Of a stretch of DNA of 64,000 nucleotides, positions 1-56,545 are shown one piece after another (position 1 is the stretch's first letter; every line of letters begins with the position of its first letter). The stretch is taken from assembly GCF_044704955.1 (NCBI RefSeq), contig NC_091995.1, positions 53,320,001-53,384,000 on the forward strand, given 5' to 3'. This stretch comes from Pristiophorus japonicus. Its lineage: Eukaryota. A program made the translations under genes and the position numbers. The notes under the pieces were generated by a model. It was not told the origin of the DNA, searched no databases, and saw only the letters and a list, made by a program, of their open reading frames with translations.

Positions 1-3000
1 ACAGACAGAGGACAGGAGACAGGGGACAGGGGACAGGAGACAGACCGGGGACAGGAGACAGGGGACAGGAGACAGGAGACAGACAGGGGACAGGAGACAG
101 GAGACAGACAGGGGACAGGAGACAGGGGACAGGAGACAGACAGGGGACAGGAGACAGGGGACAGGGGACAGGAGACAGGAGACAGGAGGCAGGGGACAGG
201 GGACAGGAGACAGGGGACAGGGGACAGGAGACAGGGGACAGGAGACAGGAGACAGGGGACAGGAGACAGGGGACAGGGGACAGGAGACAGGAGACAGGAG
301 ACAGGAGACAGGGGACAGGAGACAGGAGACAGGAGACAGGGGACAGGGGACAGGAGACAGGGGAGAGGGGAGAGGAGACAGGGGACAGGAGACAGGAGAC
401 AGGAGACAGGGGACAGGACTCAGGGGACAGGGGACAGGAGACAGGGGACAGGGGACAGGAGACAGGGGACAGGAGACAGACAGGGGACAGGAGACAGGAG
501 ACAGGGGACAGGGGACAGGAGACAGGGGAGAGGAGACAGGAGACAGGAGACAGTGGACAGGAGACAGGAGACAGGGGACAGGAGACAGGAGACAGGAGAC
601 AGACAGGGGACAGGGGACAGGGGACAGGAGACAGACAGGTGACTGGGGATAGGGGACAGGAGACAGACGGGACAGGGGACAGGACACAGGAGACAGCAGA
701 CAGGGGACAGGAGACAGGGGACAGGAGACACGGGACAGGGGACAGGGGAGAGGAGACAGGAGACAGGGGACAGGGGACAGGAGACAAGGGACAGGGGACA
801 GGAGACAGGGGACAGGAGACAGGGGACAGGAGACAGGAGACGGACAGGAGACAGGGGACAGGGGACAGGGGATAGGAGACAGGGGACAGATGACAGGAGA
901 CAGGAGACGGGACAGGGGACAGGGGATAGGGGACAGGAGACGGGACAGGGGACAGGAGACAGGGGACAGGGGACAGGAGACAGGGGACAGGGGACAGGGG
1001 ACAGGAGACAGGAGACAGGGGACAGGAGACAGGAGACAGGAGACAGGAGACTGACAGGGGACAGGGGACAGGGGATAGGGGCAGGAGACAGACAGGGGAC
1101 AGGAGACAGGGGACAGGGGAGAGGGGAGAGGGGAGAGGGGAGAGGAGACAGGAGACAGGAGACAGGAGACAGGAGACAGGAGACAGGAGACAGGAGACAG
1201 GAGACAGGAGACGGACAGGGGACAGGAGACAGGAGACAGTAGACAGTAGACAGGAGACAGGAGACAGGAGACAGGAGACGGACAGGAGACGGGAGACAGG
1301 GGACAGGGGATAGGAGACAGGGTACAGAGGACAGGAGACAGGGGACAGGAGACAGGAGACAGGGGACAGGAGACAGGGGACAGGGGACAGGAGACAGGAG
1401 ATAGGGGATAGGGGACAGGAGACAGGAGACAGGAGACAGGAGACAGGAGACAGGAGACAGGAGACAGGAGACAGGAGACAGGAGACAGGAGACAGGAGAC
1501 AGGAGACGGACAGGAGACAGGAGACAGACAGGGGACAGGGGACAGGAGACAGGGGACAGGGGACAGGAGACAGGGGACAGGAGACAGGGGACAGGGGACA
1601 GGAGACAGGAGACAGGGGACAGGAGACAGGAGACAGGGGACAGGGGACAGGAGACAGGGGACAGGAGACAGGGGACAGGAGACAGGAGACAGGAGACAGG
1701 AGACAGGAGACAGGAGACAGGGGACAGGAGACAGGAGACAGGAGACAGGGGACAGGAGGCAGACAGGGGACAGGAGACAGGGGACAGGGGACAGGGGACA
1801 GGAGACAGACAGAGGACAGGAGACAGGGGACAGGGGACAGGAGACAGACCGGGGACAGGAGACAGGGGACAGGAGACAGGAGACAGACAGGGGACAGGAG
1901 ACAGGAGACAGACAGGGGACAGGAGACAGGGGACAGGAGACAGACAGGGGACAGGGGACAGGGGACAGGAGACAGGAGACAGGAGGCAGGGGACAGGGGA
2001 CAGGAGACAGGGGACAGGGGACAGGAGACAGGGGACAGGAGACAGGAGACAGGGGACAGGAGACAGGGGACAGGGGACAGGAGACAGGAGACAGGAGACA
2101 GGAGACAGGGGACAGGAGACAGGAGACAGGAGACAGGGGACAGGGGACAGGAGACAGGGGAGAGGGGAGAGGAGACAGGGGACAGGAGACAGGAGACAGG
2201 AGACAGGGGACAGGACTCAGGGGACAGGGGACAGGAGACAGGGGACAGGGGACAGGGGACAGGGGACAGGAGACAGGGGACAGGAGACAGACAGGGGACA
2301 GGAGACAGGAGACAGGGGACAGGGGACAGGAGACAGGGGAGAGGAGACAGGAGACAGTGGACAGGAGACAGGAGACAGGGGACAGGAGACAGGAGACAGG
2401 AGACAGACAGGGGACAGGGGACAGGGGACAGGAGACAGACAGGTGACTGGGGATAGGGGACAGGAGACAGACGGGACAGGGGACAGGACACAGGAGACAG
2501 CAGACAGGGGACAGGAGACAGGGGACAGGAGACACGGGACAGGGGACAGGGGAGAGGAGACAGGAGACAGGGGACAGGGGACAGGAGACAAGGGACAGGG
2601 GACAGGAGACAGGGGACAGGAGACAGGGGACAGGAGACAGGAGACGGACAGGAGACAGGGGACAGGGGACAGGGGATAGGAGACAGGGGACAGATGACAG
2701 GAGACAGGAGACGGGACAGGGGACAGGGGATAGGGGACAGGAGACGGGACAGGGGACAGGAGACAGGGGACAGGGGACAGGAGACAGGGGACAGGGGACA
2801 GGGGACAGGAGACAGGAGACAGGGGACAGGAGACAGAAGACAGGAGACAGGAGACAGGAGACTGACAGGGGACAGGGGACAGGGGATAGGGGCAGGAGAC
2901 AGACAGGGGACAGGGGACAGGAGACAGGGGACAGGGGAGAGGGGAGAGGGGAGAGGAGACAGGAGACAGGAGACAGGAGACAGGAGACAGGAGACGGACA

Positions 3001-6000
3001 GGGGACAGGAGACAGGGGACAGGAGACAGAGAGGGGACAGGAGACAGGGGACAGGAGACAGGGGACAGGGGACAGGAGACAGGAGACAGGGGACAGGAGA
3101 CAGACAGGGGACAGGGGACAGGAGACAGGAGACAGGGGACAGGAGACAGGGGAGAGGAGACAGGAGACAGGAGACAGGGGACAGACAGGGGACAGGGGAC
3201 AGGAGACAGTAGACAGACAGGGGACAGGGGATAGGGGACAGGAGACAGACAGGGGACAGGGGACAGGAGAAAGGGGACAGATGACAGGAGACAGGAGACG
3301 GGACAGGGGACAGGAGACAGGGGATAGGGGACAGGAGACGGGACAGGGGACAGGAGACAGGGGACAGGGGACAGGAGACAGGGGACAGGGGACAGGGGAC
3401 AGGAGACAGGAGACAGGGGACAGGAGACAGGAGACAGGAGACAGGAGACAGGAGACTGACAGGGGACAGGAGACAGGAGACAGACAGGGGACAGGGGACA
3501 GGAGACAGGGGACAGGAGACAGGGGACAGGAGACAGGGGACAGGGGACAGGAGACAGGGGACAGGGGACAGGGGACAGGAGACAGGAGACAGGGGACAGG
3601 GGACAGGAGACAGGGGACAGGAGACAGGGGACAGGAGACAGGAGACAGGAGACAGTGGACAGGAGGCAGACAGGGGACAGGAGACAGGGGACAGGGGACA
3701 GGGGACAGGAGACAGGGTACAGAGGACAGGAGACAGGGGACAGGAGACAGGAGACAGGGGACAGGAGACAGGGGACAGGGGACAGGAGACAGGAGACAGG
3801 GGATAGGGGACAGGAGACAGGAGACAGGAGACAGGAGACAGGAGACAGGGGACAGGAGACAGGAGACAGGAGACAGGAGACAGGAGACAGGAGACAGGAG
3901 ACAGGAGACAGGAGACAGGAGACAGGAGACGGACAGGAGACAGGAGACAGACAGGGGACAGGGGACAGGGGACAGGAGACAGGGGACAGGAGACAGGAGA
4001 CAGGGGACAGGGGACAGGGGACAGGAGACAGGAGACAGGGGACAGGAGACAGGAGACAGGGGACAGGGGACAGGAGACAGGGGACAGGAGACAGGGGACA
4101 GGAGACAGGAGACAGGAGACAGGAGACAGGAGACAGGAGACAGGGGACAGGAGACAGGAGACAGGAGACAGGGGACAGGAGGCAGACAGGGGACAGGAGA
4201 CAGGGGACAGGGGACAGGGGACAGGAGACAGACAGAGGACAGGAGACAGGGGACAGGGGACAGGAGACAGACCGGGGACAGGAGACAGGGGACAGGAGAC
4301 AGGAGACAGACAGGGGACAGGAGACAGGAGACAGACAGGGGACAGGAGACAGGGGACAGGAGACAGACAGGGGACAGGAGACAGGGGACAGGGGACAGGA
4401 GACAGGAGACAGGAGGCAGGGGACAGGGGACAGGAGACAGGGGACAGGGGACAGGAGACAGGGGACAGGAGACAGGAGACAGGGGACAGGAGACAGGGGA
4501 CAGGGGACAGGAGACAGGAGACAGGAGACAGGAGACAGGGGACAGGAGACAGGAGACAGGAGACAGGGGACAGGGGACAGGAGACAGGGGAGAGGGGAGA
4601 GGAGACAGGGGACAGGAGACAGGAGACAGGAGACAGGGGACAGGACTCAGGGGACAGGGGACAGGAGACAGGGGACAGGGGACAGGAGACAGGGGACAGG
4701 AGACAGACAGGGGACAGGAGACAGGAGACAGGGGACAGGGGACAGGAGACAGGGGAGAGGAGACAGGAGACAGGAGACAGTGGACAGGAGACAGGAGACA
4801 GGGGACAGGAGACAGGAGACAGGAGACAGACAGGGGACAGGGGACAGGGGACAGGAGACAGACAGGTGACTGGGGATAGGGGACAGGAGACAGACGGGAC
4901 AGGGGACAGGACACAGGAGACAGCAGACAGGGGACAGGAGACAGGGGACAGGAGACACGGGACAGGGGACAGGGGAGAGGAGACAGGAGACAGGGGACAG
5001 GGGACAGGAGACAAGGGACAGGGGACAGGAGACAGGGGACAGGAGACAGGGGACAGGAGACAGGAGACGGACAGGAGACAGGGGACAGGGGACAGGGGAT
5101 AGGAGACAGGGGACAGATGACAGGAGACAGGAGACGGGACAGGGGACAGGGGATAGGGGACAGGAGACGGGACAGGGGACAGGAGACAGGGGACAGGGGA
5201 CAGGAGACAGGGGACAGGGGACAGGGGACAGGAGACAGGAGACAGGGGACAGGAGACAGGAGACAGGAGACAGGAGACTGACAGGGGACAGGGGACAGGG
5301 GATAGGGGCAGGAGACAGACAGGGGACAGGAGACAGGGGACAGGGGAGAGGGGAGAGGGGAGAGGGGAGAGGAGACAGGAGACAGGAGACAGGAGACAGG
5401 AGACAGGAGACAGGAGACAGGAGACAGGAGACAGGAGACGGACAGGGGACAGGAGACAGGGGACAGGAGACAGAGAGGGGACAGGAGACAGGGGACAGGA
5501 GACAGGGGACAGGGGACAGGAGACAGGAGACAGGGGACAGGAGACAGACAGGGGACAGGGGACAGGAGACAGGAGACAGGGGACAGGAGACAGGGGAGAG
5601 GAGACAGGAGACAGGAGACAGGGGACAGGAGACAGGGGACAGACAGGGGACAGGGGACAGGAGACAGTAGACAGACAGGGGACAGGGGATAGGGGACAGG
5701 AGACAGACAGGGGACAGGGGACAGGAGAAAGGGGACAGATGACAGGAGACAGGAGACGGGACAGGGGACAGGAGACAGGGGATAGGGGACAGGAGACGGG
5801 ACAGGGGACAGGAGACAGGGGACAGGGGACAGGAGACAGGGGACAGGGGACAGGGGACAGGAGACAGGAGACAGGGGACAGGAGACAGGAGACAGGAGAC
5901 AGGAGACAGGAGACTGACAGGGGACAGGAGACAGGAGACAGACAGGGGACAGGGGACAGGAGACAGGGGACAGGAGACAGGGGACAGGAGACAGGGGACA

Positions 6001-56186: not shown

Positions 56187-56512
56187 TGCTCTTGTCCCAG
56201 TTTTGTTCCCATCATGCTGCTCCCTCGGGGAGAGTTGTTGCTTTATGCAAGGTCCTAAGTCATGCAGGATTCAAGCCGGTAAACGCAGCAGGGCGGATCC
56301 AGGTGTGGCCTAACATACGGGACTGAGAAAAACCGATAGGAAATTTCCACATTCACTCAGAGTACAGCGCGAATTGATATATCTCTTTCAGCCTGAACCC
56401 TAGCACAGTCCCCTTCATTACACATTCCCAGCATTCACAGTGCTCCTTTGGACCTGAGACTCAACCAGCCTAAAACAACCATTGCAATGTACAGTCGAAG
56501 TTGCCCTGCCCA

Positions 56513-56545
56513 TCTCTCTCTCTCTCTCTCTCTCTCTGCCCTCAG
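56513..56545 (+). promoter_or_regulatory. 3' splice site of the Ig C1 exon: (TC)12 microsatellite as polypyrimidine tract plus CAG acceptor
   Basis: (TC)12T at 56513-56537, then GCCCTCAG with AG at 56544-56545. This gives a phase-1 exon start, as expected for Ig-domain exons. Confidence 0.88.

What the first reader, a model, noticed from the sequence alone, without database searches (positions are those of the whole stretch)
1..56545. No alpha1/alpha2 exons within 56.5 kb upstream: a >=54-kb satellite may lie inside an MHC class I-like intron
Seen: the alpha3-like exon has an intact phase-1 acceptor and no disabling mutation, yet upstream there is only satellite, CR1, MITE and about 330 bp of unassigned sequence. 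Established: in well-studied class I genes the alpha2-alpha3 intron is usually hundreds of bases to a few kb. Inference: either this gene is transcribed through a giant satellite intron, or it is an orphan 3' fragment, or the assembly is mis-joined across the satellite.
Basis: partly seen in the sequence, partly recalled or inferred. Interest (0 to 1): 0.7.

Follow-up and report, generated by a model that had tools for sequence, protein, structure and literature searches.

The report
Shark immune gene spans giant satellite
The missing exons lie just beyond the repeat: this is an intact, spliced shark MHC class I gene (UDA lineage) whose 108-kb third intron is 97% one seven-letter repeat found almost nowhere else in the genome, so the cell likely has to transcribe through the whole satellite to make the protein.

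Summary
Real, and resolved in favour of the giant-intron reading. The satellite starts 51.6 kb left of the window and is 105.5 kb long, with no N. The alpha2 exon ends just before it; alpha1 and leader exons lie further left. Seven GT-AG exons over 200 kb give an open 367-aa frame identical to a deposited sawshark protein. In 3 of 3 intron-less sequencing runs, one contig joins alpha1-alpha2-alpha3-TM at the exact splice sites, so the gene is neither an orphan nor mis-joined in order. It is the single-copy nonclassical class I gene UDA, followed by a UFA-like gene as in catshark and skate models. The alpha2-alpha3 intron is 108,209 bp against about 0.1-4.7 kb in 17 paralogs; a second intron holds a 72-kb 33-bp array, and 89% of the gene is tandem repeat. 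The GACAGGR satellite is private to this intron (4,423 of 4,427 genome-wide matches) and probably grew in place from a short CACAGGG run beside the donor. The exact array length rests on one assembly, and large satellites are common in this region. Verdict: known gene, known kind of oddity (satellite intron gigantism), unusual case.

The parts
1..56545 (+). Right half of intron 3 (alpha2-alpha3; whole intron G000:C19:53268337-53376545, 108,209 bp). The exons left of the window are: leader C19:53253646-53253697, alpha1 C19:53265219-53265482, alpha2 C19:53268061-53268336 (window = C19:53320001-53384000)
1..53937 (+). Right half of the GACAGGR satellite (whole array C19:53268384-53373937, 105,554 bp, no N, one ~0.56-kb LINE-like island at C19:53271435-53271998); fills 97% of intron 3
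53938..56186 (.).
56546..56821 (+). Exon 4, alpha3 (Ig C1) domain
56822..58031 (+). Intron 4 (1,210 bp), mostly a 22-bp minisatellite whose unit contains the donor motif (46 GTRAG copies)
58032..58157 (+). Exon 5, connecting peptide, transmembrane segment and start of tail
58158..64000 (+). Start of intron 5 (72,323 bp, C19:53378158-53450480), holding a 71.7-kb array of a 33-bp unit from window 58538 onward. The tail exons lie right of the window: C19:53450481-53450510 and 53453718-53453797 (stop)

Best explanation
This is an intact, spliced shark nonclassical MHC class I gene (UDA lineage) whose alpha2-alpha3 intron holds a 105.5-kb satellite that likely grew in place by slippage and unequal exchange and is likely transcribed through and removed by ordinary cis-splicing. 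Shown: exon order, GT-AG sites, open frame, spliced alpha1-alpha2-alpha3-TM contigs, near-absence of the satellite elsewhere in the assembly. Inferred: the array began as a run of four CACAGGG starting at base 26 of the intron, drifted to GACAGGG/GACAGGA and grew through kb-scale block duplications (periods of about 2.4, 4.4, 7.3, 10.9 and 18.4 kb). Inferred: it is tolerated partly because its sense strand is 0.85% T and so offers no poly(A) signal and almost no acceptor, leaving exon definition to the normal splice sites. Inferred: the expansion is neutral bloat in a satellite-rich part of a 5.9-Gb genome, not an adaptation. The protein is predicted to be a beta2-microglobulin-associated, peptide-binding class Ib heavy chain.
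For: Alpha1/alpha2 hits of PF00129 directly left of the array on the + strand. Seven exons, six GT-AG introns, 1,104-nt CDS equal to deposited protein P0005, no internal stop. In 3 of 3 small runs (X5-X7, three samples, one study) the same contig (1,367, 1,377, 872 nt; same depth in both calls) covers alpha2 with loose ends equal to the end of alpha1 and the first 30 bases of alpha3, and covers alpha3 with a loose end equal to the TM exon; DNA run X1 instead runs into the intron. Alpha2 and alpha3 are each single-copy: next best 46% and 53%. No N between leader and stop. 4,423 of 4,427 matches to five tandem units lie in this array, 4 on C11, none on the reverse strand. Longest exact internal repeat 4,247 bp, next 1,222 bp. 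No AATAAA/ATTAAA and 1 of 14,351 YAG with a pyrimidine tract in the array. UDA then UFA-like order matches fused models of catshark and skate.
Against: The runs' kind is not on record; RNA is deduced from exact intron-less joints. Contigs show joints, not single molecules, and nothing here shows nascent transcription of the satellite. All spliced runs come from one study. Array length rests on one assembly; no long read was laid across it, so neither junction of the array has read support here. The 'no decoy signals' argument is not necessary: the 72-kb array in intron 5 has 1,465 acceptor-like YAG sites and intron 4 has 46 donor-like sites. Splicing across intron 5 was not seen directly (it rests on P0005 and on 522-532 nt of contig beyond alpha3).
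Confidence: 0.86

Rival explanations
1. The gene and the intronic satellite are real, but the assembly has the array length substantially wrong (collapsed or over-expanded), so the true intron is much shorter or longer than 108 kb.
For: Low-complexity purine-rich 7-mer array; one exact 4,247-bp tandem duplication at C19:53316987/53321214 could be an assembly echo; 200-N gaps occur in or beside neighbouring satellites; no spanning read examined.
Against: No N in the array; all other exact repeats are 1,222 bp or shorter; 5-kb bins share 60-mers mainly with near neighbours and in block patterns, with one continuous monomer mix; no leftover array elsewhere in the assembly. Removing the duplication changes the length by 4%.
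Confidence: 0.09
2. The satellite introns are functional: their length delays or dampens UDA expression, or the purine-rich intronic RNA needs and recruits dedicated RNA-binding proteins as in Drosophila Y-loop genes.
For: Two separate introns of one conserved single-copy gene carry giant arrays; the satellite is private to the intron and on one strand; precedent in kl-3/kl-5 (abstract of PMC6508621).
Against: Orthologous models are far smaller (76.9 kb and 82.9 kb for two fused genes each; alpha2-to-tail on a 24.6-kb contig in basking shark), so the size is not conserved; arrays of 58 kb or more and about 140 kb or more flank the gene outside it, and a neighbouring paralog has a ~59-kb first intron, so bloat is regional.
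Confidence: 0.1
3. The alpha3-TM part is an orphan 3' fragment, or the two halves are joined by trans-splicing or come from a different locus.
For: None beyond the distance; contigs alone cannot tell cis- from trans-splicing.
Against: Spliced contigs match both exons with no differing letter; each exon is single-copy; exons are collinear on one strand with matching phases.
Confidence: 0.02

Closest known systems
Cartilaginous-fish nonclassical class I lineage UDA (Almeida et al. 2020, not held, recalled; PMC10751288 section 9 and supplement passages read)
   Same: By eye against the nurse shark UDA rows of the supplement alignment: about 66 of 88 alpha1 and 59 of 92 alpha2 residues identical; single copy; in a class Ib cluster; UFA-like gene next downstream; white shark and catshark orthologous models are labelled MHC-Ib there.
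   Different: Gene span 200 kb with 108-kb and 72-kb introns; leader to end of the UFA-like alpha3 is 260.6 kb here against 82.9 kb for the whole fused catshark model.
Drosophila Y-loop genes kl-3 and kl-5 (satellite intron gigantism; abstract of PMC6508621)
   Same: Small coding exons separated by introns made almost wholly of simple satellite; spliced product exists.
   Different: There megabase introns, over 99% satellite, expressed in spermatocytes, with shown intronic transcription and dedicated RNA-binding proteins; here 0.1 Mb, 89% tandem repeat, an MHC-region immune gene, none of the machinery tested.
General intron elongation and tandem-repeat load of elasmobranch genomes (passages of PMC10620051 and bioRxiv 10.1101/2025.06.08.657570)
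   Same: Large shark genomes have long introns and regions dominated by simple tandem repeats; shorter chromosomes carry more of them.
   Different: The passages read give genome-wide trends, not a single intron filled by a locus-private satellite, and do not mention this gene.

Membership tests
MHC class I heavy chain gene | Leader, alpha1, alpha2, alpha3, TM, tail exons in phase 1 with an open frame | tested here: met
MHC class I heavy chain gene | Spliced transcript | tested here: met
   alpha1-alpha2-alpha3-TM joints in 3 of 3 small runs; tail exons not seen directly
UDA lineage | High alpha1/alpha2 identity to named UDA sequences | tested here: met
   about 75% and 64% to nurse shark UDA, counted by eye; no tree was built; the other shark lineage rows visible there (UFA, UGA) are clearly more distant, UAA/UBA/UEA rows were not read
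UDA lineage | Single or low copy | tested here: met
   next best genomic hits 46% (alpha2) and 53% (alpha3)
UDA lineage | Most classical peptide-terminus residues kept (recalled: eight of nine) | tested here: met
   Against HLA chains: Y7, Y59, R84, T143, K146, W147, Y159, Y171 kept, position 123 is L; the list of nine is recalled
UDA lineage | Located in the class Ib cluster of the MHC with UEA and UFA, flanked by brd2/b2m | tested here: inconclusive
   Many class I loci on C19 40-57 Mb and a UFA-like neighbour; brd2 and b2m were not searched
UDA lineage | Mono- or oligomorphic, restricted tissue expression (recalled) | tested here: inconclusive
   No differing letter in alpha2/alpha3 in three samples, but they may be one animal; tissues not on record
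Satellite intron gigantism (Y-loop type) | Intron made almost wholly of simple satellite | tested here: met
   97% of 108,209 bp
Satellite intron gigantism (Y-loop type) | Megabase scale | tested here: not met
   0.108 Mb
Satellite intron gigantism (Y-loop type) | Intronic satellite shown to be transcribed and dependent on dedicated RNA-binding proteins | not testable with these tools

The most novel reading that the evidence does not exclude
A satellite born inside one intron of a conserved vertebrate immune gene, and found nowhere else in the genome, turns UDA into a Y-loop-like transcription unit: array length sets the timing or level of UDA expression, varies between individuals as a heritable immune dial, and needs purine-rich-RNA-binding factors for the gene to be read through.
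Probability: 0.08. Interest if true: 0.8.

Novelty: new variant of a known kind. Interest (0 to 1): 0.42.

Why it matters
It is a clean vertebrate case of an expressed, intact, single-copy gene that is 89% tandem repeat, with a satellite whose birthplace can be pointed to and which has not spread. That makes it a handy locus for asking how polymerase and spliceosome cross long simple satellite in somatic cells, and how satellites arise. It also warns that shark MHC genes can look like orphans or be truncated in annotation where an intron holds a long array. The gene and its protein are already on record, and the function of UDA is not advanced by this.

Tried and rejected
Orphan 3' fragment: rejected. 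Processed retrocopy as source of the intron-less contigs: no second close copy of alpha2 or alpha3 in the assembly; the intron-less class I-like copies on C3 are only about 46-49% identical. Coding role of the satellite: + strand frames have 67-85 stops; one - strand frame is open over 17,979 codons, which follows from the unit's letters and was not pursued. Recursive splicing: no YAG-GTR site with a good pyrimidine tract in intron 3 (best 6 of 18 among 46 sites); only that motif was tested. No RNA holder listed by the run search; X1 gave no contig on alpha2, which the tool says can be a filter effect. Earlier scan notes: none for this genome. The primary UDA paper is not held. Ortholog intron sizes could not be measured directly, since no tool serves other shark genomes; only gene spans and contig lengths were used. 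No structure prediction was run. Literature searches listed no paper on a satellite-filled intron in a shark class I gene; the library lacks most subscription papers and preprint supplements were closed, so this is weak.
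Full report
Observation. The window is G000:C19:53320001-53384000 of a 5.9-Gb assembly. Bases 4-53937 are one 7-bp array with no N. A class I alpha3-type exon lies at 56546-56821 with an intact acceptor and open frame, and a transmembrane exon at 58032-58157. The gene's own alpha1 and alpha2 give no credible hit in window 1-56545.

Where the missing exons are. In 200 kb fetched left of the window there is no N, and the array begins at C19:53268384, making it 105,554 bp long with one ~0.56-kb LINE-like island near its left end. A genome search with PF00129 returned 41 matches, two of them directly left of the array on the + strand. 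The alpha2 exon ends at C19:53268336 with a GT donor 47 bases before the array's called start. A protein search with alpha2 returned 13 longer proteins, the best a 367-aa UniRef entry at 100%, labelled as an MHC class I-related protein of a Pristiophorus sawshark. Mapping it on 464 kb of sequence (window plus 200 kb each side) gives seven exons and six GT-AG introns of 11,521, 2,578, 108,209, 1,210, 72,323 and 3,207 bp; the 1,104-nt coding sequence translates exactly to that protein with no internal stop. The gene spans 200,152 bp, 89% of it in three tandem arrays. The only N run in those 464 kb lies 72 kb past the stop. So the gene model is already on record; as that protein may be predicted from this same assembly, it is not independent support.

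Splicing. Seven runs hold the alpha3 exon: four that may be the assembly's source and three small ones from three samples of a second study; none is on record as RNA. I laid four of the seven (X1, X5, X6, X7). On alpha3, the contigs of X5, X6 and X7 cover the exon only and continue with the first bases of the TM exon, whereas X1 runs into the intron. On alpha2, contigs of the same lengths and depths (1,367, 1,377, 872 nt) cover the exon, preceded by the end of alpha1 and followed by the first 30 bases of alpha3. All three have exactly 570 nt before window position 56547. That equals alpha1 plus alpha2 plus one base (541) plus 29 leader bases, which is where a 31-mer graph should branch, because the leader is identical in two neighbouring paralogs and their alpha1 exons share only the first base (the graph rule is my knowledge). 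Limits: contigs are not single molecules, the three runs are one study, and the joints across intron 5 were not seen.

Identity. Counted by eye against the supplement alignment of PMC10751288 (passages), alpha1 and alpha2 are about 66 of 88 and 59 of 92 identical to nurse shark UDA. Alpha2 and alpha3 have no close second copy (46% and 53% next best). Eight of nine recalled peptide-terminus positions are kept, with L at 123. The next class I gene downstream (C19:53506113 onward) resembles the UFA rows and matches the second half of fused catshark and skate models. Section 9 and passages of that paper and passages of PMC12562908 describe UDA as a single-copy class Ib gene in a cluster with UEA and UFA. 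No tree was built.

How unusual. Of 20 paralogous loci fetched, 17 gave both alpha2 and alpha3 hits, with gaps of about 109-4,651 bp, median 1,685; three gave no pair. These 3-7-kb loci were chosen where hits lay close together, so another giant intron would have been missed by design. Orthologs appear much smaller: white shark and catshark models that each fuse two genes span 76.9 and 82.9 kb (supplement rows), against 260.6 kb for the comparable stretch here, and a partial basking shark model holds alpha2 to tail on a 24.6-kb contig. Against surprise: satellites of about 140 kb or more (26-bp unit) and 58 kb or more (37-bp unit) flank the gene, and a neighbouring paralog has a ~59-kb first intron. 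Passages of PMC10620051 and bioRxiv 10.1101/2025.06.08.657570 (12 of 20 places shown for the latter) report long introns and tandem-repeat-rich regions in large shark genomes.

The satellite. Five tandem GACAGGR units match 4,427 times in the assembly, all on the forward strand; 4,423 are in this array by my own count and four are on C11. Two longer words match only here (19 and 16 times). The intron opens with four CACAGGG copies from base 26 that grade into the satellite, which suggests birth in place (inference). Recurrence distances of about 2.4, 4.4, 7.3, 10.9 and 18.4 kb and the 60-mer sharing matrix point to growth by block duplication. The longest exact repeat is 4,247 bp and the next 1,222 bp, so the array should be assemblable from long accurate reads (inference), though that one duplication could be an artefact worth 4% of the length.

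Mechanism. The simplest account is ordinary cis-splicing by exon definition after read-through of the array. The sense strand has 901 T in 105,554 bases, no AATAAA/ATTAAA, five GTRAG and one acceptor-like site among 14,351 YAG, so it offers little to stop or mislead the machinery. This is not required for tolerance: intron 5 has 1,465 acceptor-like sites and intron 4 has 46 donor-like sites. No strong recursive site was found. Transcription of the satellite itself is inferred, not shown. The nearest precedent is Drosophila kl-3/kl-5 (abstract), which are far larger and expressed in spermatocytes.

Verdict. It is a known gene lineage, already annotated, with an unusual architecture of a known kind. 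Ten literature searches listed no report of this case, within a library that lacks most subscription papers; the primary UDA paper was not held and is recalled only. Interest 0.42.

Noticed in passing
window 56820-57979: The 22-bp minisatellite starts at the alpha3 donor and its unit contains the donor motif (46 GTRAG). Read-through gives a stop after WGKEWV, and an unnamed relative's protein P0007 ends in the same residues, hinting at a conserved intron-retaining, soluble form (or unspliced RNA).
   Followed up: partly
G000:C19:53253560-53253720, 53926508, 53012859, 52863052: The leader exon with about 85 bases upstream is 98-99% identical in this gene and three distant class Ib paralogs whose alpha2 is only about 29% identical to it: likely gene conversion or exon sharing.
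   Followed up: partly
G000:C3:316.6-319.3 Mb: Nine near-identical class I-like copies with alpha1, alpha2 and alpha3 in one open frame without introns (419-777 aa frames), off the main class I contig; also single ones on C13 and C17. Possibly amplified retrocopies or element-borne genes; PMC10751288 says elasmobranch class I genes map only to the MHC.
   Followed up: no
protein P0008 (sevengill shark model, 205 aa): The ortholog's model stops after alpha2 and reads into an intron start like the one here (GRSGTD), suggesting a break or large array in the same intron.
   Followed up: no
G000:C19:53030001-53169867 and 53526107-53584000: Further giant arrays beside the gene: a 26-bp unit over at least about 140 kb and a 37-bp unit over at least 58 kb, each with or next to a 200-N gap.
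   Followed up: partly
G000:C19:52954103-53012883: A neighbouring class Ib paralog has a ~59-kb leader-to-alpha1 intron with (GA)n-rich arrays, while its two close paralogs have about 3 and 6.5 kb.
   Followed up: partly
G000:C19:53215379-53216557: An 84-bp-period repeat typical of a C2H2 zinc-finger exon (label from my knowledge) lies 37 kb upstream of the leader.
   Followed up: no
G000:C8:143.5-148.8 Mb, C1231, C53, C113: Dozens of near-identical Ig C1-type exons (about 35% to alpha3), probably a clustered immunoglobulin locus.
   Followed up: no
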